Sequence record: MN871446.1
DNA: 64,000 bases
Strand: one strand, 5' to 3'
DNA from: Klebsiella phage KpLz-2_45
The number at the start of each line of letters is the position of its first letter. Within the stretch, counting starts at the first letter, position 1. The notes under the pieces are model-generated. The model did no database searches. It was given only the letters and a program-made list of their open reading frames with translations, and was not told the origin of the DNA. Positions 8,813 to 31,002 of this stretch are shown here, piece by piece. A program made the translations under genes and the position numbers.

Positions 8813-10228
8813 TTACTGTTTCCAGTAAGGTTTGTATTTACCCATTGCAATTCTGATCAGGTCATAGCTGCTCAGGAAATGTTTCTCTTCTTTGATTTCC
8901 TTGAACTGCCAATGGCCGCGAGTTTCCCCTAACAGCTCGTCCCAATCGTAACCTTGCTCTTTGATCTTTTCGAAGATCTCTGGCGGGGTCATCGCGTAAC
9001 CTTCCAATTTCCACATGAAGTTACGAATCTGACACAGACCAGAGGTCAGCTCTAACGCACGGCGCAGTTTATAGTCGTCGTCGATTTTGTCACGGACGGC
9101 GTTACGCGTGAAAGATACTTCCGGGTAGATCGCCAGAGAGAGGTTAGTTGTATTACTACCCATCCCGTAATACTTATTCGTTTCGCGCAGGTAGTGTAGC
9201 TGAGTTAAGTGAACGAGTAAGCCTTCTGCCTGAGAGAAGACCAGCTCAAACGGTGCACCGGATTGACCGTATTTACCGCGCAGGTTCATACAACGGACTT
9301 TAACGAGGTCTTTGTCTTCCTTCGATCCCATTTCACCGCGACCGTAAAGCGGAAGACGCGAGCCGTCAGTTAGCGGAGAACGACCGTGAACAAACCACAT
9401 GTTATTCGGAATAAAGGTGAATTTTTCGGTGGCGTTCTTGATCGTCTTACCGGACTGGAGGTCGGCCATGATCTTGTGCGGTGGCGCATTCGGGTCCATG
9501 TTCGCTTTCGCCCCGATATGGGCAGTTAACATGGAATAGAACGAATGGCGGCCATTGAGCCCCGGCATCTGCATCATGATCTGGGTTTTGTAACGCCCGT
9601 CGTTCATGAAGATCATGTTGTTGTCTTTCGAGCCGATTTCGTTATCGCCAAATTTTTCTTCAATGGCATCAAAAGACATCATTGACCAGGAATCGATTTC
9701 TTCCATGGTTGGCGGATACATCTTGATCAGCTGTCCGTCATGGTTAGGGAACGGAGTGGTCAACATAGGGACTTTCGTTTTCTTATCGACTTTCATTTCG
9801 CCGTATTTTTTACGGACGTCCCAATAGTCGTTCCCGGACATTTTTAACATGTTAGTGAAGAGAAACTTTTCATTCTCTTCGAGACCGTGTTCGGTGATAC
9901 GCGGCATTCTGGCAGCACGGTACCCTAAACCTTCAATATCTTTAGAGCCTTCGGTCTCGTAGAAAAAGCTGTTGACGGCATCGTAGTACAGTTCCTGAGG
10001 CTGTAACATCATGAAATCAGCCAGGGTCGATTTAAACTGGTTGTTCTCGCCTACGACGGCGTTGATATTCGCCACCCCACCGTTTAAATACATTTCCCCG
10101 GCTTCGCCTTCGACGTAACGACCAGAGAAATGATCAAACAAACAGTTGGTGTTCAGTTTAGGGGTAGAGGCATCGGCTTTCTTATCTTCGCTCATGACAC
10201 CCGCCGGGCTCAGTGAAAATCCGCTCAT
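8813..10228 (-). CDS. hypothetical protein, 471 aa (first gene of the operon)
   Basis: Long ORF with an AAGGA RBS. Fairly optimised codon usage. No recognised motifs. Confidence 0.6.
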   Translation of the reverse strand: MSGFSLSPAGVMSEDKKADASTPKLNTNCLFDHFSGRYVEGEAGEMYLNGGVANINAVVGENNQFKSTLADFMMLQPQELYYDAVNSFFYETEGSKDIEGLGYRAARMPRITEHGLEENEKFLFTNMLKMSGNDYWDVRKKYGEMKVDKKTKVPMLTTPFPNHDGQLIKMYPPTMEEIDSWSMMSFDAIEEKFGDNEIGSKDNNMIFMNDGRYKTQIMMQMPGLNGRHSFYSMLTAHIGAKANMDPNAPPHKIMADLQSGKTIKNATEKFTFIPNNMWFVHGRSPLTDGSRLPLYGRGEMGSKEDKDLVKVRCMNLRGKYGQSGAPFELVFSQAEGLLVHLTQLHYLRETNKYYGMGSNTTNLSLAIYPEVSFTRNAVRDKIDDDYKLRRALELTSGLCQIRNFMWKLEGYAMTPPEIFEKIKEQGYDWDELLGETRGHWQFKEIKEEKHFLSSYDLIRIAMGKYKPYWKQ

Positions 10229-22843: not shown

Positions 22844-24320
22844 TTTAAACCTCGCTTAAAGGGAAGTCGGTGGATTCAGGACCGCAAATTGATTGTTGGG
22901 TAAAGGCATGAAAACTTCTTTGGACCCTAAGTTACAAATAGTACGTCCTACGCGCAGATCGGTGTCCAACGTAGTCATGTCAGCGGTTTCGTCGATCGCC
23001 CAAGCGGAACCGGAATATTTATAACTTTGACGAGAGATCACATCGACAATACTATAAACCAAACCACCGAAGGTAGTAGGCGTAAAGATCAGCGAATCTT
23101 TACCATTGACGATAAACCCACCCATGTTCGCAAAAGCGGATGAACTGAAGGTCACCGAACTCACGTCAACCGTGACGGTCGTAGAGGCTACGGTCACGGA
23201 CATACTGGTCCCGGATTTCGTACAGGTAACCTGAATAGAGGAACCCGTTAACGCCGCGATTGCAACGTCACTTCCTTTGGTCCAAGTACCGGCGATATAC
23301 GTACCGAGATAGACCGCACCGTTTTTAAAGAAGATACCGGCGTAATTGTCATTACCGCTAGTGTCTTGATAGTAACCGAAAATAAACCCAGGTACTGAAG
23401 TACCCGTCGCCACATCGACATACCCTTTCTGGGAGTAAGTAGAAGGCGCCGCAATCAACAATGCCGATACTTTATCCGCGGCCTGTAACGGGGAAGTCAA
23501 CGTACGCAGGGTAGCATCCCACGTTTTGTTAATCCCCGTTGAATGCGTTACCGCCGCATCGAGTAGCCCGCCGGCCGGGAACCCGGCCGTGAGTTTAGCG
23601 ATATAACTCGGCTGGCAGGAATAATCACGAACGATTACGTTGTTCTTAATAGCCGTCACCACACCTGCGGGATCGACGTATTTCTGAGTGACGGTACCGG
23701 CGGCGTTCTCTGCACTTGAGGCAAAGCCGGCATTAACCACGTTTCCTAAGCCTACATCCGCTGCCGTTAAGTTAGTCCCTTGTTCAATCGCTTGGTCGAC
23801 ATAAATTTTCGCAGCATTGGTCCACCAATACGCAATTCCCGCTGGAGTGGTATAGAGGTTGGCGGCAGTCCCTAAAACGGTTTGGTCGTTCGTTGCCGTT
23901 CCGTAGTTCTGAACGTTACCTAACCCGACTTGGGCCGCGGTCACACTGTGCGGATTATTTTTATCCAGTAAGTGCGCGGCCAGCGGTTGGTCAGTTGAGT
24001 TTGTCAACATCAGGTTGGCCAGATACGGGGTCAGTAAAGTCGTTTTACTCACACCCGCTAACGCTTCTTCTTCCGTTGCTGTGGTGTAGTTAGGGACATT
24101 CCCCAAGCCCACTTGTGCTTTAGTGACGCCATGCGGGTTATTGGTGTTCGTGGTGTGGAACTCCATGATACCCGGAACCAGCGCGTTTGCCAGAATCCTG
24201 CCGCCCGACGGGGTCAGGTACAGGTTATCCGCTACCCCTGCCGAAGATTCGAGGGTGTTCGCAACACGGTAGTTTTGTACCAGATCTAACCCAACTTGGG
24301 CTTTATTCACCTTGTGCGGG
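21650..24320 (-). repeat. dispersed about 40-nt degenerate repeat (encoding NPH.VT.AQVGLGNV) occurring at least 8 times across the two adjacent fibre genes
   Basis: Copies near 21661, 21885, 22085, 23915, 24095 and 24275 share AACCC.CA.........GC.CA.GT.GG..T.GG on the coding strand. Confidence 0.55.
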
Positions 24321-25099
24321 TTACTGTCGTCGTTCTCGTGTGCTTCCAGTAACGGCAAGTAAATTGCCTGGAATTGCTGAGACGTTCTTAAAGACGTCAT
24401 GTAGTACGTATTATCTGTACCGCCTTCTGCCTGCTCTTTATTCGCCGGAACCAGATTACCCAGATCGTCAATACCCAAATCGGCCAATGTGATTTTGTGT
24501 GGGTTGTTGTGGTCGGCAATGTGTTCTAGCAAAGATTGCATGGCTTTATTAAAGCCGGCAGATTGTGCATCAGAAAGCGAATAGATCGCAGAAATCACTT
24601 CGCTGAAGCCCGTCATGTCATCAACGTCATGACGGTGGGCGATAGTCGGGAATTCCGTTGGGAGATCAACCACGGCACCCCATTGCAAGGAACGCGGGTC
24701 TTGCGCTTTGTTCGCCATGAGCTGGAGAATTTTATTCTCGTCTAAACAGAATTCTCCCCCTAGGGTGTGGTATTCAATTTCGATATTGGCGCTGAGTGAT
24801 TTATCGTTAAAGACAATCGCACCGTAGACCGGTAACTGACTTCCAGAAACCGTAATTTGGTCGAAACGGAAACCAAAGAAATAATCGACGTCAGGGCGTA
24901 AGGTGACGCCGGTGGTCGTATTGCGGCAGACAAAGCCGCGACGGAAGAACGGTGCGTAACGCGGGACAATAAAGTTAAAGTCGGTTCCGTTAGCTGCTGT
25001 TATCGTATGAGCCTCACCTGAGATCTGGTTACTTTCATTCTCTTGGTAAGGATCGAAGTCATATGGGAATACAATTTCGTCGCTCATGATTATCCTCAA
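22856..25099 (-). CDS. large tail fibre protein with phage-fibre repeats, 747 aa
   Basis: At least five copies of NPH.VT.AQVGLGNV.NY. Gly/Thr/Ser-rich C-terminal region. Adjacent paralogous fibre gene. Confidence 0.7.
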   Translation of the reverse strand: MRIIMSDEIVFPYDFDPYQENESNQISGEAHTITAANGTDFNFIVPRYAPFFRRGFVCRNTTTGVTLRPDVDYFFGFRFDQITVSGSQLPVYGAIVFNDKSLSANIEIEYHTLGGEFCLDENKILQLMANKAQDPRSLQWGAVVDLPTEFPTIAHRHDVDDMTGFSEVISAIYSLSDAQSAGFNKAMQSLLEHIADHNNPHKITLADLGIDDLGNLVPANKEQAEGGTDNTYYMTSLRTSQQFQAIYLPLLEAHENDDSNPHKVNKAQVGLDLVQNYRVANTLESSAGVADNLYLTPSGGRILANALVPGIMEFHTTNTNNPHGVTKAQVGLGNVPNYTTATEEEALAGVSKTTLLTPYLANLMLTNSTDQPLAAHLLDKNNPHSVTAAQVGLGNVQNYGTATNDQTVLGTAANLYTTPAGIAYWWTNAAKIYVDQAIEQGTNLTAADVGLGNVVNAGFASSAENAAGTVTQKYVDPAGVVTAIKNNVIVRDYSCQPSYIAKLTAGFPAGGLLDAAVTHSTGINKTWDATLRTLTSPLQAADKVSALLIAAPSTYSQKGYVDVATGTSVPGFIFGYYQDTSGNDNYAGIFFKNGAVYLGTYIAGTWTKGSDVAIAALTGSSIQVTCTKSGTSMSVTVASTTVTVDVSSVTFSSSAFANMGGFIVNGKDSLIFTPTTFGGLVYSIVDVISRQSYKYSGSAWAIDETADMTTLDTDLRVGRTICNLGSKEVFMPLPNNQFAVLNPPTSL

Positions 25100-25152
25100 T
25101 GTACCATCGGCCGATGGATCAACATACCAATACTCATCAAAAAGGACCGGAC

Positions 25153-26397
25153 ATGTATCAGCTTATTCAGGCACAAACACGAACGAAAGGTAGTTTTAAT
25201 GATTGGGAAGAAAAGGCACTGGGTGAAGTACGACTGATTACCATCTTCACTTTGTACAGTAATGTTCTGGTTTACCTCTTCGACGCGACTAACGAGAAGA
25301 ACGGATGGCTGGATCTCTATAGCCTCCCGGTGTCGGTGCGCGATTCTGTCGCCACGTTAAATCAATACCTTGAATTAGCATCTGGTCTGACTTTGGTGGA
25401 AGACGACCCTCGTGGTCAACGCGGTGACAGTTACGTTCGCTTTCTGAATGCAATGGCGTACAAGTTCACCTTTAAAGGGACTAACGCTAATTTCAGTACC
25501 GACGAAAACCTGTTACCAGATCAACGTATTGACCTTCTGGTGCAACGGGACGGCATTACCGATTACAGTACTATTGTTGACCAATCTCTTTGGACAGTCA
25601 ACGGACTCTGTTTCCGAGCATGGCCGATTGATGGCGAAGGGATTACACTGAACCACGCTGGTAAGTTTGCGTCCAAGTTTAACGACTTACGTGTAGGGAT
25701 TCTGGATTTTAGTTCAATTGGGAAAGTAGAGACTTACCCTATTTCGGCGAGTATGATTCAGGGCGGTGGGGAAGCGTTACCATTAGCTAAAGGGTTTTAC
25801 TTACGTTCTCCGGTGGCGCTGACCGGGAAAACCGTTGGTCTGGTAGTAGCGGGGAAACTGTATCTTCTCGATAAAGAAGTCTCTGTTACTGGGGAAACCC
25901 GTATCCAAGTCCATATGCAGAATATCAACCTGATCAACCACTTTTTTGAAACGCACCAATATTTGGACTACAGTGACATTCCGCTTTCTAAAGATGAGAA
26001 TGAAACAGAACAGGTGGTTGCAAATCAGTTCATCACTGACGCAGTGATCAAAGCGTTTATGACTTCGGTTTATTCTTTCCTGGTGGTGATCGACAGCGTG
26101 AACCTTGAGAAAGAATACCTCAGTTTGAAACGGACGTTGATTGATGGGACTTATCTCTCGCCGGGCGAGGCTTTACCAGACCTTCCGGCACAAATCGGTA
26201 ACGGGTATCTGGCGGAGTATACCTTGTGGAAGCAAGATGGGTTCTACGCACTGCGTCTCCCGCATTCGTTAGTCAGTCGTTGGTTTTACGAAACCATTCC
26301 AATGAATGAGCGCCAACTGGTTCAGAACCAACGTTACGGTTATAAACCGACGTTCTCTTCTGAAGCACGGCTTCTCTTAATTAAAAAGGTGGCCTGA
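25153..26397 (+). CDS. hypothetical protein, about 414 aa (ORF track start 25099), probably tail-associated
   Basis: The internal ATG at 25153 is preceded by AAAAAGGACCGGAC. The upstream ATG overlaps the divergent fibre gene. Confidence 0.5.
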   Translation: MYQLIQAQTRTKGSFNDWEEKALGEVRLITIFTLYSNVLVYLFDATNEKNGWLDLYSLPVSVRDSVATLNQYLELASGLTLVEDDPRGQRGDSYVRFLNAMAYKFTFKGTNANFSTDENLLPDQRIDLLVQRDGITDYSTIVDQSLWTVNGLCFRAWPIDGEGITLNHAGKFASKFNDLRVGILDFSSIGKVETYPISASMIQGGGEALPLAKGFYLRSPVALTGKTVGLVVAGKLYLLDKEVSVTGETRIQVHMQNINLINHFFETHQYLDYSDIPLSKDENETEQVVANQFITDAVIKAFMTSVYSFLVVIDSVNLEKEYLSLKRTLIDGTYLSPGEALPDLPAQIGNGYLAEYTLWKQDGFYALRLPHSLVSRWFYETIPMNERQLVQNQRYGYKPTFSSEARLLLIKKVA

Positions 26398-26399
26398 GT

Positions 26400-26999
26400 A
26401 TGTGGACTTCATTTTTCAACAACAAGTTGGTCAGGTGGCTTCTGGTCATTCTCTCTATTTTGCTCTTTATCTACGGTGTATTTAAAGCCGGGGAATACGC
26501 ACAGAAAAAGATCACTGAAACAATCGCCGACGTCACGAACCAAATGACGCAAACCATCCAAAAGAATTTGCAACAGTCGCTTGATGAGCACATGGGCGTG
26601 TTACAAAACGAATTGGATAATAACTTGTCTTCAATCAATGGTAAATTCGATGAACAACAAAAAGCGATTAAAAATACTCAGTCTAAGCTTGATGGTATTG
26701 GTGATGTGTGGTTGCGCGTCGAAAGAGTACGTACCGACCAAAAACACGTCGGTAACGCTCAAGGTACCGGAAGTCAAACTCCCGGAAGTTCGGGAGGAAG
26801 TGATGGAACCTATTACGCCAAACTTCCAGCTGAGAATGTGCAATTTCTTAAAGGGGAAGCCTTTAGAGCAGATCAATGCGCCGTGCGATTAAACGCCGCG
26901 CAGCAGGTCATCGTTCAGTATAAAGGGGCGTTTGTAAAATACCAGGAACTCGTGGAAGTTTACCTTAACGCCGCCCAACTTGACGGTAAGACAAAATAA
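26400..26999 (+). CDS. type-II membrane coiled-coil protein; candidate i-spanin (Rz-like)
   Basis: N-terminal TM helix LVRWLLVILSILLFIYGVF followed by a long coiled-coil periplasmic-type domain. Contains an embedded +1-frame lipoprotein ORF. Confidence 0.45.
   Translation: MWTSFFNNKLVRWLLVILSILLFIYGVFKAGEYAQKKITETIADVTNQMTQTIQKNLQQSLDEHMGVLQNELDNNLSSINGKFDEQQKAIKNTQSKLDGIGDVWLRVERVRTDQKHVGNAQGTGSQTPGSSGGSDGTYYAKLPAENVQFLKGEAFRADQCAVRLNAAQQVIVQYKGAFVKYQELVEVYLNAAQLDGKTK
26650..26892 (+). CDS. embedded +1-frame ORF encoding a candidate o-spanin (Rz1-like) lipoprotein, about 80 aa
   Basis: Translation MNNKKRLKILSLSLMVLVMCGCASKE... has a classic signal peptide (basic n-region, hydrophobic core, Cys lipobox-like VMCGC) and a Pro-rich mature part ending in a Cys. 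Confidence 0.35.
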   Translation: MNNKKRLKILSLSLMVLVMCGCASKEYVPTKNTSVTLKVPEVKLPEVREEVMEPITPNFQLRMCNFLKGKPLEQINAPCD

Positions 27000-27004
27000 A
27001 ATAA

Positions 27005-27033
27005 AGGTAGAGGGTCAAACCCTCTACCTTTTA
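27005..27033. terminator. hairpin AGGTAGAGGG-tcaaa-CCCTCTACCT + TTTAT
   Basis: 10-bp stem with a T-run after it. Lies between convergent genes. Confidence 0.65.
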
Positions 27034-27037
27034 TAAT

Positions 27038-27634
27038 CTATCGTCTGCTACGTAACGCGGTGATAACGTCTGCTACTACACTGCTGTTGATCTTATCGCC
27101 TACCACTGCCGAAAGGATATCTCGGCGCTCTCGGTTAATGATGCCCATGTAATACCACGTCACCATCATCGTCGGTAAGATAATGATCCCTGCTAACGTC
27201 GCCGAGGGGAGTTCTTTTCTATCGATACACACCACGGCCACTACTGAGGTGAAGATCAAAATAGTGAAGGCCAGTACCATTGCGAACATAGCACCAACCA
27301 AACGCCGTGACCTGACTTCGTATTTATCCGGTTTAGCGATCGCACCAATCACTTCTGGATGAATACCGGGTACCGTCTTATCTGTTTGGTCATTAACTGG
27401 TTCTTCTTTTCCTTGTTCCGGTAAAGGTGCGATTTCCATTTCTAACCATATTGTCTTGTTATCGTCATCGGGATGACTGTCCAGATATTCCCGCAGGTCT
27501 TTCACGGTGGCGGTTTCTGGGTGAATAGCGGGCGCAAAAAGATGCGCGCGATCCGCAAGCGAGATACCATCCTTATCAACGTAATTACCCAGGACGGTAT
27601 CGTCAGGGAGTGAAAGGAGTTCATTTAATGTCAT
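27038..27634 (-). CDS. membrane protein, 198 aa, acidic N-terminal domain and two C-terminal TM helices
   Basis: Hydrophobic segments LVGAMFAMVLAFTILIFTSVVAVVCI and LAGIIILPTMMVTWYYMGII. ATGA overlap with tmk. Confidence 0.5.
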   Translation of the reverse strand: MTLNELLSLPDDTVLGNYVDKDGISLADRAHLFAPAIHPETATVKDLREYLDSHPDDDNKTIWLEMEIAPLPEQGKEEPVNDQTDKTVPGIHPEVIGAIAKPDKYEVRSRRLVGAMFAMVLAFTILIFTSVVAVVCIDRKELPSATLAGIIILPTMMVTWYYMGIINRERRDILSAVVGDKINSSVVADVITALRSRR

Positions 27635-28251
27635 TGATAGACCTCATCATAACTTGCCATCAGTTGAAGAAAGACCTCGGACAACGGACGAGTGGCGTCA
27701 ATGAGGGCGACCTTTCCGTTAGCCTCAGGCGCAAGGTCATTCAAAACCGTTAAGTAACGGTCACGGTAGAAATCAAATTGAGTCGCCAATTCTTCTTCGA
27801 TGACATCTTTTTTGCGGCGTCCTAACCGAGCAACGTGGGTGGCGTAATCGATATCCAAGAAAAAGATTGAGTGGTGGTGATCGAAGAGTCCTAATCCTTC
27901 GTGGAGATTGAAAATCCAATCCCATTCTTCTTTCGGACTATAGGCGAAAGTCGAAGGCCATGAGCGGTCAAGAATAACGGTATGTCCACCCTCCAGAGCA
28001 AAGTTAACTTGACTGTCGAAGATCTCTTTACGTGCCGAGACGAACAGCAGAGCACGAGCAGCGGGGGAAGACGGGCGATCAGACGACTGTGTTAATTCGC
28101 GGATTTTTTCTGCAGGGACATTGCCGCCAGGCTCACGAAACACCACGACAGATTCACCACGTTCTTTCAACGCCTGTCGGAGTAATGAGACCGCTTCTGT
28201 TTTCCCTGCGCCATCGAGTCCTTCAATGATCAATAGTTTTGCTCTTGCCAT
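27631..28251 (-). CDS. tmk: thymidylate (dTMP) kinase
   Basis: P-loop IEGLDGAGKT, REPGG motif, DRS...AY lid region and IDATRPL. The protein is colinear with bacterial Tmk over its full length. Confidence 0.85.
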   Translation of the reverse strand: MARAKLLIIEGLDGAGKTEAVSLLRQALKERGESVVVFREPGGNVPAEKIRELTQSSDRPSSPAARALLFVSARKEIFDSQVNFALEGGHTVILDRSWPSTFAYSPKEEWDWIFNLHEGLGLFDHHHSIFFLDIDYATHVARLGRRKKDVIEEELATQFDFYRDRYLTVLNDLAPEANGKVALIDATRPLSEVFLQLMASYDEVYQ

Positions 28252-28261
28252 GTTTACCTTC

Positions 28262-28843
28262 TTAAATTATACCCGTTAATTCCCGTTTCCATTTAAGGAA
28301 CAACCAATACCCGATGGCGATTGAATCGATGCTGTGTTCATCGAGTTCATCGATATCTAATTCGCTATCAACATACAACGTCTTTTCTGCAATCAATTTT
28401 TTCACCGCTTTACGAACGGCTTCTTTGTCCCCGCCTTTACCTGGTGCACCAACCGCCTTTTTTGCCGTGGGTGGATCAACTAAAAATAACGGTAATGTAT
28501 TTTTAAAATCCCAGACTGCCTCGCGCGCCATCACAATCCCTTCTACCAGAGACTGGAAAGCGGAGACAAATTTCAATTTCATGAACGCCGATTCGCAAGA
28601 GACTAAGACAGGGTTAAAATAATGCAAACGTTCGATAAGGAACTCTCTGCACTTTGCATGTCGCGCACCTCGGTCCCCTAAGACCAATTCCGGACTAACG
28701 TCAGTTAAGAAGCGATCAGCGTGGAAAGTCTCAGCGTGACGGAGGTAAACTTTCCCGGTATCGAGATCGTAATCTAAAATCGAAATCCCAAAACAACGAC
28801 TCCCTGGGTCAATACCCATGATTCTAAAAAATTGGTCATTCAT
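28262..28843 (-). CDS. RuvC-like Holliday junction resolvase, 193 aa
   Basis: N-terminal MGIDPGSRCFGISIL (RuvC motif I with catalytic Asp), CESAF (Glu), and C-terminal DEHSIDSIAIG (Asp/His pair as in RuvC DAADALAIA). Confidence 0.7.
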   Translation of the reverse strand: MNDQFFRIMGIDPGSRCFGISILDYDLDTGKVYLRHAETFHADRFLTDVSPELVLGDRGARHAKCREFLIERLHYFNPVLVSCESAFMKLKFVSAFQSLVEGIVMAREAVWDFKNTLPLFLVDPPTAKKAVGAPGKGGDKEAVRKAVKKLIAEKTLYVDSELDIDELDEHSIDSIAIGYWLFLKWKRELTGII

Positions 28844-30084: not shown

Positions 30085-31002
30085 TTAAGCCAGTGAACGG
30101 ATGGTGGCCGTAATGCTGGATGTTGTAGACAGGGTCGCTACGCTATTCGAGGTCAGCATCGGTTCGTTAGCGCCCATTTCCAGCGTGATAACAAAGCCTT
30201 GGTTATCGAAGGACAGCTGGCGATACGTCGACAGCCAGGTCAATACCTGGGCGTAGATCGCTTCATTCATGTTGATTTGCGCGCCGCCCGGACCCACCGC
30301 TTGTACAGTACGCTGGATAGCGGAAACCAAACCGATCTCCGAGATAATCGCACGCTTCTGTGAACCGTAGAGAATGCTGGCGACATTATTCAGTTCCGCA
30401 ACATCGTTCTCGTCGAAAGGTACGTCAACTTCCATACTGGCAGTCAGGTACTCAGAGTTCGTTGTGGTCGCCTGGGCAGAGGTCAGCGTTGGGCGGGTCG
30501 GGAACAGGTTCGATGAGTTCGGGACAAATTCGGTAGTGGTTGCTTCCCCGTCCACTACAACGGTATGGCGCAAGGTCGGTTTCGCAGCAGAGAGATCAAC
30601 CTTTTTCAAATAGTAAGAAAAATAGTTCACGCCGTTCAGATTCTCTAATTTACGGAGACCGTAGTTCGCCCGTTCAGCAACAGAGAGATCATTGGTTTCC
30701 AGACGCATGACAAACGGGATCATGTTGAACGGCCCAAAGTCGGCGGCGGTGTGTTGCGCAGGTTCGATAATGATTTCGTTATCGGCGGTCGGGACGTTAT
30801 AATGTCCTTTATCACCGATACAGTAGTAAGCAAACGTAGGACGATCAGTGGTAGCAATTTGGGCATCGCTATTTACCGCGAGTCTTTCGTTTAGCGTGGT
30901 GTACTTTAATGCAGTCAACGGCAGGCCCGCTAACAGATGGGTCTGGAGCAGTCCGCTTAACGCCGTCCGGGCGATGAGATTCGTATTTGTGCTGGCACTC
31001 AT
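30085..31002 (-). CDS. hypothetical structural protein, 305 aa
   Basis: ORF only. Confidence 0.55.
   Translation of the reverse strand: MSASTNTNLIARTALSGLLQTHLLAGLPLTALKYTTLNERLAVNSDAQIATTDRPTFAYYCIGDKGHYNVPTADNEIIIEPAQHTAADFGPFNMIPFVMRLETNDLSVAERANYGLRKLENLNGVNYFSYYLKKVDLSAAKPTLRHTVVVDGEATTTEFVPNSSNLFPTRPTLTSAQATTTNSEYLTASMEVDVPFDENDVAELNNVASILYGSQKRAIISEIGLVSAIQRTVQAVGPGGAQINMNEAIYAQVLTWLSTYRQLSFDNQGFVITLEMGANEPMLTSNSVATLSTTSSITATIRSLA

What the first reader, a model, noticed from the sequence alone, without database searches (positions are those of the whole stretch)
26400..26999. Rz/Rz1-like embedded spanin pair sitting inside the tail-fibre block
The 199-aa ORF has an N-terminal TM helix plus a long coiled coil (i-spanin architecture). 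Entirely within it, in the +1 frame, lies an ORF whose product MNNKKRLKILSLSLMVLVMCGCASKE... has a textbook lipoprotein signal peptide and a short Pro-rich mature region. This is o-spanin architecture embedded lambda-style. An embedded frame with a perfect n-h-c signal peptide is very unlikely by chance. No endolysin or holin is obvious nearby. The convergent 198-aa two-TM protein at 27038..27634 is the only other membrane protein in the vicinity. Either this phage scatters its lysis genes, or this is a different membrane-anchored device that uses a nested lipoprotein, for example superinfection exclusion or fibre assembly.
Basis: partly seen in the sequence, partly recalled or inferred. Interest (0 to 1): 0.6.

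Follow-up and report, generated by a model that had tools for sequence, protein, structure and literature searches.

The report
Nested spanin lysis gene pair
A giant Klebsiella phage carries a gene-within-a-gene pair encoding the two proteins that break the host's outer membrane at the end of infection; this is an ordinary, already annotated kind of lysis module, but the membrane protein next door looks like its so far unrecognised holin partner.

Summary
ORF 26400..26999 (199 aa) has an N-terminal TM helix, a long helix, a disordered linker and a second helix. It fully contains a +1-frame ORF, 26650..26892 (80 aa), with a lipoprotein signal peptide (lipobox VMCGC, Cys22).

The inner frame is under selection:
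- It is intact in all 13 lineages examined (outer identity down to about 30%).
- Synonymous change in the outer frame collapses inside the overlap (4/64 versus 51/72 codons, p=1e-15).

A profile of the outer family reaches proteins of which 41 of 66 are Pfam Rz (PF03245). The inner protein matches the ORF nested in the Rz gene of a canonical holin-lysozyme-Rz cassette.

The window is a roughly 300-kb phiKZ-like Klebsiella phage. The orthologous pair in Serratia phage Moabite was published as i-spanin/o-spanin in 2019, so the spanin reading is supported but not new.

Lysis genes are partly scattered. The gp144-like endolysin lies about 112 kb away in relatives and carries a secretion signal.

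The convergent 2-TM protein (27038..27634) is always linked to the spanins. Its N-terminal domain aligns with that of the proven phiKZ holin gp142 (hhalign 70%, P=4e-5). It is a plausible missing holin.

The parts
26400..26999 (+). i-spanin gene (199 aa). Layout: N-in TM anchor, periplasmic helix 1, Gly/Ser-rich linker, helix 2 with conserved Cys160.
   Evidence: ORF and translation. TM. Secondary structure. PHROG Rz-like spanin phrog_2466, E=8.5e-6, nearly full length. A family profile reaches PF03245 proteins (41 of 66). Annotated 'Rz-like spanin' or 'putative spanin' in MJ359 and FBKp24, and 'i-spanin' in Moabite.
26427..26483 (+). Codons 10-28 of the i-spanin: the transmembrane anchor.
   Evidence: Kyte-Doolittle maximum 2.45. 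It lies within the predicted helix 9-98.
26650..26892 (+). o-spanin gene (80 aa precursor, 59 aa mature lipoprotein), fully embedded in frame +1 of the i-spanin gene.
   Evidence: Conserved in 13 lineages, with start position, lipobox Cys and C-terminal motif MEPITPNFQxRxCNFLKGKPxEQINxPC. Dual-coding signature. tblastn E=6e-5 to the ORF nested in the Alexa 'Rz lysis protein'. Annotated o-spanin in Moabite.
26650..26715 (+). Signal peptide and lipobox (MNNKKRLKILSLSLMVLVMCG-C). The Cys22 codon is 26713-26715.
   Evidence: PROSITE-type lipobox match. The second Cys is the conserved one: relatives have (A/V)MSGC.
26640..26642 (+). Weak Shine-Dalgarno-like GGT, 7 nt upstream of the inner ATG.
   Evidence: GGT, AAGG or AGGG lies 7-10 nt upstream of the inner start in most of the 8 lineages inspected. 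One lineage (DRR240551) has only a poor GTGG match. This is weak evidence.
27003..27031 (.). Bidirectional intrinsic terminator hairpin (13-bp stem) between the convergent spanin and 2-TM genes.
   Evidence: Terminator scan. Fold dG -20.8 kcal/mol, z=-7.3, 0 of 200 shuffles as stable.
27038..27634 (-). 198-aa protein: cytoplasmic N-domain of about 75 aa, variable acidic linker, two TM helices, basic C-tail. Candidate holin, a distant homolog of phiKZ gp142.
   Evidence: Family alignments. AF2 TM hairpin 104-139/145-181. Convergent with, or close to, the spanin pair in every lineage. hhalign versus the gp142 family gives 47, 60 and 70% as the alignment deepens, P=4e-5. Controls.
25153..26397 (+). 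phiKZ gp130-like virion protein. Its stop lies 2 nt before the i-spanin ATG, so the genes are probably co-transcribed (context).
   Evidence: tblastn with gp130, E=1.4e-19. phrog_3337. The annotated start in MJ359 corresponds to 25153.
27631..28843 (-). Thymidylate kinase (27631..28251) and RuvC-like gp140 homolog (28262..28843). These are synteny anchors. In phiKZ, gp140 is followed directly by the lysis cassette.
   Evidence: Pfam/PHROG. tblastn with gp140, E=8e-26. phiKZ-like gene order.

Best explanation
The locus encodes a two-component spanin of the embedded (lambda Rz/Rz1) architecture in a phiKZ-like Klebsiella jumbo phage.

Proposed mechanism:
1. The 199-aa i-spanin is anchored in the inner membrane by its N-terminal TM helix. 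It projects a helix-linker-helix domain into the periplasm.
2. The nested +1 ORF is translated from its own ATG (26650), exported, and cleaved by signal peptidase II at Cys22. It is then lipidated and sorted by Lol (Ala at +2) to the inner leaflet of the outer membrane.
3. The conserved C-terminal parts of the two proteins bind each other. The resulting complex spans the periplasm through the peptidoglycan mesh.
4. Once the endolysin has degraded the peptidoglycan, the complexes are freed. They collapse and fuse the inner and outer membranes, which completes lysis.

Shown here: both genes exist, both are under purifying selection, and they have spanin architecture and remote Rz/Rz1 homology.

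Inferred from lambda Rz/Rz1 and phiKZ gp141/141.1: complex formation, membrane fusion and timing.

The pair is probably co-transcribed with the upstream late virion gene. It faces a conserved 2-TM protein that is the likely holin. The endolysin is encoded elsewhere in the genome.
For: Anatomy.

Inner ORF conservation:
- The inner ORF is intact in frame +1, with lipobox and a conserved C-terminus, in 13 lineages. These are the window, FBKp24, Moabite, Totoro, ParM-25, seven metagenome contigs and pEa_SNUABM_54. PhiEaH1 and podophage Alexa also carry it.
- Outer-frame third-position divergence, window versus FBKp24, is 0.098 inside the overlap and 0.701 outside.
- Synonymous codon differences at identical residues are 4/64 inside versus 51/72 outside, Fisher p=1e-15.
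- The only stretch that megablast aligns between the window and FBKp24 is 26630..26932, which is essentially the overlap.

Homology:
- PHROG hits to two 'Rz-like spanin' families, outer E=8.5e-6 and inner E=6e-4.
- An exhaustive profile search gives 87 hits at E<=1e-3. Of the 66 single-domain ones, 41 are Pfam PF03245 Rz, best E=3e-18.
- The inner protein hits the ORF nested in the Rz gene of phage Alexa with E=6e-5. That gene sits in a holin-lysozyme-Rz cassette and is itself PF03245 with E=6e-10.

Annotation and literature:
- The Moabite ortholog is annotated i-spanin/o-spanin and published (PMC6639629).
- phiKZ gp141/141.1 spanins were proven by complementation (PMC12894885).
Against: - There is no experimental evidence for this family: no translation data for the inner ATG, no complementation.
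- The window's outer protein has no Pfam hit on its own. The inner protein has no Pfam or NCBIfam spanin hit.
- There is no detectable homology to the proven phiKZ spanins. hhalign gives 16%, covering the TM only.
- The Shine-Dalgarno sequence before the inner ATG is weak.
- The AF2 model has low confidence (pLDDT 60).
- LipoP and SignalP were not available. Lipobox recognition rests on the PROSITE-type pattern.
- The endolysin is not adjacent.
Confidence: 0.9

Rival explanations
1. The pair is a non-lytic envelope device. Examples would be superinfection exclusion, or assembly or anchoring of the hyperbranched tail fibres. It would use an IM-anchored coiled-coil protein and a nested lipoprotein, and would sit among virion genes for that reason.
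For: The flanking genes are virion and tail-fibre genes. No endolysin lies within the 64-kb window. In 201phi2-1 the gp141-143 homologs were detected in virions by mass spectrometry, according to record notes.
Against: The outer family is homologous to Rz (PF03245). The inner protein matches the nested ORF of a canonical holin-lysozyme-Rz cassette. In phiKZ the proven lysis cassette also sits among virion genes, next to the RuvC-like gene. So the neighbourhood is not evidence against lysis. No similarity to any Sie or assembly family was found.
Confidence: 0.05
2. Only the outer gene is functional. The inner frame is an untranslated by-product that stays open because the outer protein sequence constrains it.
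For: Synonymous shuffles of the outer gene keep an alternative-frame ORF of at least 80 aa in 25% of cases, and a lipobox-type ORF in about 2%. The SD is weak. The inner ORF is unannotated in all Klebsiella-phage records.
Against: Synonymous substitutions in the outer frame are depleted about 11-fold inside the overlap only. The signal peptide and lipobox persist where the outer protein is only about 49% conserved. The start codon position, the distance to Cys and the two further Cys are conserved in lineages down to about 30% outer identity.
Confidence: 0.02
3. The pair is a genuine spanin, but the convergent 2-TM protein is unrelated to lysis. It would be, for example, a membrane protein of the nucleotide-metabolism operon. 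The real holin would lie elsewhere, or would be unnecessary because the endolysin is Sec-exported.
For: - The 2-TM gene overlaps the Tmk stop (ATGA) and follows RuvC and Tmk.
- hmmsearch with the gp142 profile does not find it among the window ORFs.
- Foldseek does not link it significantly to gp142 homologs.
- It has 2 TMDs where gp142 has 1.
- The relatives' endolysin has an N-terminal secretion signal.
Against: hhalign of the N-domains is co-linear from residue 1. Probability rises from 47 to 60 to 70% with deeper alignments, P=4e-5. The score of 35 compares with a maximum of 22 in 240 column shuffles, and 14-16 for reversed controls. The gene is linked to the spanin pair in all genera examined. 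It occupies the position of the phiKZ cassette after the gp140 homolog.
Confidence: 0.4

Closest known systems
Serratia phage Moabite i-spanin/o-spanin (CPT_Moabite_142/143; QDB71172/QDB71173)
   Same: Ortholog: outer 42% and inner about 67% identical. Same +1 embedding, same start-to-Cys distance, same C-terminal motif. The flanking genes are the same: gp130-like upstream, then a convergent 2-TM protein, Tmk and RuvC.
   Different: Different host genus (Klebsiella versus Serratia). In the Klebsiella phages only the outer gene is annotated. Neither pair has been tested experimentally.
Lambda Rz/Rz1 (Pfam PF03245 for Rz): the prototype embedded two-component spanin
   Same: Type-II TM i-spanin with two helical segments and a linker. 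The OM lipoprotein o-spanin is wholly nested in frame +1 over the linker-coding region. Periplasmic Cys residues are present. Homology at profile level: 41 of 66 remote hits are PF03245.
   Different: The window protein itself is below the Pfam threshold. It is longer (199 versus about 153 aa). The mature o-spanin is 59 aa with two extra conserved Cys. It is not adjacent to an endolysin.
phiKZ lysis cassette gp141 / gp141.1 / gp142 / gp143 / gp144 (Manohar et al. 2026, PMC12894885)
   Same: Same phage group and same genomic neighbourhood, downstream of the gp139 and gp140 (RuvC-like) homologs. Both have a two-component spanin next to a membrane protein with a large cytoplasmic N-domain. The N-domain of the 2-TM protein aligns with that of holin gp142.
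   Different: - There is no detectable sequence homology between the spanins.
- The phiKZ o-spanin overlaps gp141 and extends beyond it, rather than being embedded.
- Here the spanin pair is inverted (convergent), and Tmk is inserted.
- gp143 is absent from the window.
- The endolysin lies about 112 kb away and has a signal sequence instead of a PG-binding domain.
- The holin candidate has 2 TMDs, not 1.
Acinetobacter podophage vB_AbaP_Alexa Rz, with its unannotated nested Rz1-like ORF
   Same: The best cross-clade sequence link. Inner proteins are 33-36% identical over about 90% of their length (tblastn E=6e-5). The C-terminal halves of the outer proteins are 45% identical over 67 aa. Same +1 embedding.
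   Different: A small T7-like phage with a contiguous holin-lysozyme-Rz cassette. The Alexa o-spanin lacks the two C-terminal Cys.

Membership tests
Two-component spanin (i-spanin/o-spanin), embedded Rz/Rz1 architecture | The i-spanin has a single N-terminal TM anchor in N-in/C-out (type II) orientation. | tested here: met
   Kyte-Doolittle maximum 2.45 at residues 10-28, with K9/R12 upstream and no other hydrophobic segment. Predicted helix 9-98. No dedicated topology predictor was available.
Two-component spanin (i-spanin/o-spanin), embedded Rz/Rz1 architecture | The periplasmic domain of the i-spanin is mostly alpha-helical: two coiled-coil-prone helices separated by a flexible linker. | tested here: met
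   AF2 gives helix 9-98, disorder 108-137 and helix 144-193, at pLDDT 60. Heptad periodicity p about 0.014 for helix 1 and 0.076 for helix 2.
Two-component spanin (i-spanin/o-spanin), embedded Rz/Rz1 architecture | The o-spanin is a small outer-membrane lipoprotein with an SPase II signal peptide and lipobox Cys, no Asp at +2, and a short Pro-rich mature part without a TM. | tested here: met
   PROSITE-type lipobox at Cys22, Ala at +2, mature 59 aa with 7 Pro. The lipobox is conserved in 13 lineages. LipoP and SignalP were not run.
Two-component spanin (i-spanin/o-spanin), embedded Rz/Rz1 architecture | The o-spanin gene is embedded in, overlaps, or immediately follows the i-spanin gene. | tested here: met
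   26650..26892 lies wholly inside 26400..26999, in frame +1.
Two-component spanin (i-spanin/o-spanin), embedded Rz/Rz1 architecture | Both reading frames are maintained by selection. | tested here: met
   Synonymous differences 4/64 in the overlap versus 51/72 outside, p=1e-15. Third-position divergence 0.10 versus 0.70.
Two-component spanin (i-spanin/o-spanin), embedded Rz/Rz1 architecture | Function: needed for outer-membrane disruption, and complements lambda Rz-am/Rz1-am. | not testable with these tools
   This needs wet-lab complementation, as was done for phiKZ 141/141.1 (PMC12894885).
Pfam PF03245 (Bacteriophage Rz lysis protein) | The sequence scores above the family's gathering threshold. 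| tested here: not met
   No PF03245 hit for the window protein, even at E<=5. Profile-level transitive homology does exist: 41 of 66 remote profile hits are PF03245. PhiEaH1 ortholog E=0.058.
phiKZ-type lysis cassette (gp141-gp144) | Spanins homologous to gp141/gp141.1. | tested here: not met
   tblastn gives nothing. hhalign gives 16% probability, TM segment only.
phiKZ-type lysis cassette (gp141-gp144) | Located directly downstream of the gp139 and gp140 (RuvC-like) homologs. | tested here: met
   gp139 and gp140 homologs lie at 30975..30139 and 28843..28262. They are followed on the same strand by Tmk and the 2-TM protein, then by the convergent spanins.
phiKZ-type lysis cassette (gp141-gp144) | A class IIIb holin (gp142 homolog) is adjacent to the spanins. 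| tested here: inconclusive
   N-domain hhalign up to 70% probability, P=4e-5, far above the shuffle and reversal controls. Against this: 2 TMDs instead of 1, no HMM-to-sequence hit, and no significant fold hit.
phiKZ-type lysis cassette (gp141-gp144) | Contiguous gp143 regulator and gp144 endolysin. | tested here: not met
   No homolog of either in the window. The gp144-like transglycosylase lies about 112 kb away in MJ359, and likewise in Moabite. The gene upstream of it is unrelated to gp143.
Unimolecular spanin (u-spanin, T1 gp11 type) | A single protein with an N-terminal lipobox and a C-terminal TM anchor. | tested here: not met
   The inner protein has no C-terminal hydrophobic segment. 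Its only hydrophobic stretch is the signal peptide.

The most novel reading that the evidence does not exclude
The 1.2-kb locus 26400..27634 may be a rearranged remnant of the phiKZ-type lysis cassette.

On this reading, the convergent 198-aa protein is the holin that was reported as 'not identified' for Moabite-like phages. It would be a gp142 relative that keeps the cytoplasmic regulatory N-domain but has two TM helices (N-in/C-in) instead of one.

In this enterobacterial clade the cassette would have been split. The spanins were inverted. The gp143 regulator was lost. The endolysin was moved about 112 kb away and acquired a Sec/SAR-type signal in place of the peptidoglycan-binding domain. 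That would imply a pinholin-like or otherwise altered mode of lysis control in nucleus-forming jumbo phages of Enterobacterales.
Probability: 0.5. Interest if true: 0.45.

Novelty: already known. Interest (0 to 1): 0.2.

Why it matters
The spanin pair matters mainly for annotation. Every deposited Klebsiella-phage relative that carries annotation (MJ359, LPKP23, FBKp24, Centimanus) lacks the nested o-spanin CDS, and several label the outer gene 'hypothetical'.

The locus is a clean textbook example of dual coding. It has an 11-fold depletion of synonymous change, and even a four-residue peptide, FLKG, that is encoded identically in both frames.

The more useful outcome is the side result, a concrete and testable holin candidate for the Moabite, FBKp24, PhiEaH1 and Goslar group of jumbo phages. 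No holin was identified in the Moabite announcement, and the Pseudomonas phiKZ holin was only defined in 2026. That result would bear on how lysis timing is controlled in phages considered for Klebsiella therapy.

Tried and rejected
1. Synonymous-codon shuffling as a null for the inner ORF. It is uninformative, because 25% of shuffles keep a long alternative-frame ORF. I replaced it with comparative tests.
2. Direct Pfam and NCBIfam hits for the outer and inner proteins. There were none beyond coiled-coil or lipoprotein noise.
3. Homology of the spanins to phiKZ gp141/141.1. None was found.
4. A search for gp143 or gp144 homologs in the window. None was found.
5. Whether the gene upstream of the relocated endolysin is a gp143 relative. 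It is not: hhalign score 11.7.
6. Foldseek of the 2-TM model against viral structures. It returned only its own family. The 201phi2-1 gp142 homolog appears at rank 24 with E=4, which is not significant.
7. hmmsearch of gp142 and gp141 profiles against all window ORFs. The 2-TM ORF was not among the gp142-profile hits. The gp141 profile ranked the i-spanin ORF first, but only at E=0.09.
8. The search for related loci for gp142 and for Alexa Rz in viral contigs. These gave one identical locus and no locus, respectively.
9. The sigma-70 promoter scan gave no excess over shuffles. It is not applicable to phiKZ-like phages, which use their own RNA polymerases.
Full report
**What is there**

Nested inside it, in frame +1, is an 80-aa ORF that starts at ATG 26650 and ends at 26892.

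The outer protein has one strongly hydrophobic segment, residues 10-28, with a Kyte-Doolittle score of 2.45. Basic residues precede it. AlphaFold2 on an 8-sequence alignment predicts helix 9-98, a disordered Gly/Ser-rich stretch at 108-137, and helix 144-193. Confidence is low, at pLDDT 60. Heptad periodicity is significant in the first helix and borderline in the second.

The inner protein, MNNKKRLKILSLSLMVLVMCG-CASKE..., satisfies the PROSITE lipoprotein rule at Cys22. Ala at +2 indicates outer-membrane sorting. The mature part is 59 aa with 7 Pro and two further Cys. Applying the same rule to all 654 ATG-ORFs of at least 40 aa in the six frames of the window finds this ORF and one poor candidate.

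**Is the inner frame real?**

A synonymous shuffle of the outer gene is a weak null: 25% of shuffles retain a long alternative-frame ORF. I therefore relied on comparison with relatives.

- The outer protein family is small, with 20 clusters among 5.8 billion proteins.
- In every lineage I could read there is a +1 ORF of 67-90 aa that ends about 90-115 nt before the outer stop. The lineages are the window, FBKp24, Moabite, Totoro, ParM-25, seven metagenome contigs and Erwinia phage pEa_SNUABM_54, with outer identity down to about 30%.
- Each of these ORFs has a lipobox. In the enterobacterial lineages the tail MEPITPNFQxRxCNFLKGKPxEQINxPC is almost invariant.
- In the eight closest lineages the distance from the start codon to the lipobox Cys is constant.
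- The substitution pattern is the classical dual-coding signature. Between the window and FBKp24, outer-frame third positions differ at 9.8% of sites inside the overlap and 70% outside.
- Codons for identical residues differ in 4/64 cases inside versus 51/72 outside (Fisher p=1e-15). The same holds for all 11 pairs tested.
- The only part of the gene that megablast aligns between the two phages is 26630..26932, which is the overlap.
- The signal-peptide region stays hydrophobic and keeps its lipobox where the outer protein is only about 49% conserved.

**What it is**

The window is 98% identical to roughly 300-kb Klebsiella jumbo phages (KpSz_1, LPKP23, MJ359). It is more distantly related to FBKp24 and to Serratia phage Moabite, which are phiKZ-like phages.

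- MJ359 and FBKp24 annotate the outer gene as 'Rz-like spanin' or 'putative spanin'.
- Moabite annotates both the i-spanin and the nested o-spanin. Its genome announcement states so explicitly (PMC6639629).
- The window proteins alone hit only PHROG 'Rz-like spanin' families weakly, and no Pfam family.
- A 17-sequence profile searched exhaustively against 1.84 billion representatives finds 87 proteins at E<=1e-3. Of the 66 single-domain ones, 41 are Pfam PF03245 (Rz), best E=3e-18.
- Independently, the inner protein matches (tblastn E=6e-5) an unannotated lipoprotein ORF nested in the PF03245 'Rz lysis protein' of Acinetobacter podophage Alexa. That gene is the third gene of a holin-lysozyme-Rz cassette.

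The pair is therefore a divergent branch of the Rz/Rz1 spanins with lambda-style embedding. The nested gene lies over the region that encodes the i-spanin linker.

**How it most likely works**

This part is inferred from lambda Rz/Rz1 and from the complementation data for phiKZ gp141/141.1 (PMC12894885).

The i-spanin sits in the inner membrane. The lipidated o-spanin sits in the inner leaflet of the outer membrane. Their C-terminal parts bind across the periplasm, and these are the most conserved segments in both frames (85-87% mean identity). After the endolysin removes the peptidoglycan, the complexes collapse and fuse the two membranes.

The conserved Cys160 of the i-spanin, and Cys64/Cys79 of the o-spanin, could form the disulfide links known from Rz/Rz1. 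This is inference only.

The i-spanin ATG lies 2 nt after the stop of the gp130-like virion gene. A strong bidirectional terminator (27003..27031, dG -20.8, z=-7.3) follows the pair. That arrangement suggests late co-transcription.

**Where are the other lysis genes?**

In Pseudomonas phiKZ-like phages the order is gp139, gp140 (RuvC-like), i-spanin, o-spanin, holin gp142, regulator gp143, endolysin gp144. All of these functions were shown experimentally in 2026 (PMC12894885).

In the window, the gp139 and gp140 homologs are followed on the minus strand by thymidylate kinase and the 198-aa 2-TM protein. The spanin pair then faces them. So the 'tail-fibre block' position is in fact the ancestral lysis-cassette position.

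No gp143 or gp144 homolog is in the window. The gp144-like transglycosylase lies about 112 kb away in the 98%-identical MJ359, and likewise in Moabite. It begins with a secretion-signal-like segment, MPNYFWALVLCLVSIIATPATA|SVS, instead of the phiKZ peptidoglycan-binding domain.

**The neighbour**

The 198-aa protein has these parts:
- a cytoplasmic N-domain of about 75 aa;
- a variable acidic linker;
- two TM helices;
- a very conserved juxtamembrane motif, WYYMGIINRERRDILSA;
- a basic tail.

It is convergent with the spanin pair in all Klebsiella, Serratia and Pectobacterium lineages, in the metagenomic lineages whose contigs extend past the spanin genes, and in pEa_SNUABM_54. In PhiEaH1 it lies 3 kb away. 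It always follows Tmk where Tmk is present.

Profile-profile comparison with the gp142 holin family aligns the two N-domains co-linearly from residue 1. Probability rises from 47% to 60% to 70% as the alignment is deepened, with P=4e-5. The score of 35 compares with a mean of 12, sd 2.2 and maximum 22 in 240 column shuffles. Reversed controls score 14-16, and an unrelated pair scores 12.

Three points count against it. An HMM-to-sequence search and Foldseek do not see the link. The TM number differs. The Moabite authors found no holin. I rate it a roughly 50-60% holin candidate. The phiKZ paper does not mention these phages.

**Verdict**

The module is an ordinary member of a well-known class, and its ortholog has been published. 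It scores low for novelty and interest.

Two things are worth passing on. The nested o-spanin is missing from the annotations of all the Klebsiella-phage records that carry annotation. The convergent 2-TM gene is a testable holin candidate, which implies a split, rearranged phiKZ-type lysis cassette with a secreted endolysin.

Noticed in passing
window 27038..27634 (-): A conserved 198-aa protein with a cytoplasmic N-domain and two TM helices, always linked to the spanin pair. Its N-domain aligns with that of the proven phiKZ holin gp142 (hhalign up to 70%, P=4e-5). It is a likely unrecognised holin. No holin was identified in the Moabite genome announcement.
   Followed up: yes
window 26839..26851 (tttcttaaagggg): The same tetrapeptide, F-L-K-G, is encoded in both overlapping frames from the same bases: outer VQFLKGEA and inner CNFLKGKP. 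This segment is the most conserved part of both proteins (85-87% mean identity).
   Followed up: partly
window 27003..27031: A perfect 13-bp hairpin flanked by an A-run and a T-run. It is a bidirectional intrinsic terminator between the convergent spanin and 2-TM/Tmk/RuvC operons (dG -20.8, z=-7.3).
   Followed up: yes
L014 2489..3169 (Klebsiella phage MJ359 38558..39238; outside the window): The gp144-like transglycosylase (endolysin) of this clade lies about 112 kb from the spanins. It starts with a signal-peptide or SAR-like segment (…ATPATA|SVS) instead of the phiKZ PG-binding domain. This suggests Sec-dependent export.
   Followed up: partly
window 27631..27634: The thymidylate kinase stop and the 2-TM gene start overlap (ATGA). 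The holin candidate is therefore translationally coupled to a nucleotide-metabolism gene, which is unusual company for a lysis gene.
   Followed up: no
window 22856..25099 (-): The 743-747-aa tail-fibre-like protein contains four or five copies of a motif of about 20 residues (…NNPHxVTxAQVGLGNVxN…). It hits many PHROG tail-fibre families through these repeats. Relatives annotate the start at MSDEIVF (25087), not at the upstream TTG.
   Followed up: no
window 9663..9827 (+): The only other ORF in the window that passes the lipobox pattern (MASKDIIDQESISSMVGGYILISC…). It has acidic residues in the n/h-region and lies antisense to an annotated gene in MJ359. It is probably spurious.
   Followed up: partly
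window 25099..25152: The listed ORF for the gp130-like virion protein starts at 25099. Homologs and the MJ359 annotation start at 25153 (MYQLIQ…). That leaves a divergent intergenic region of about 65 bp between it and the tail-fibre gene.
   Followed up: no
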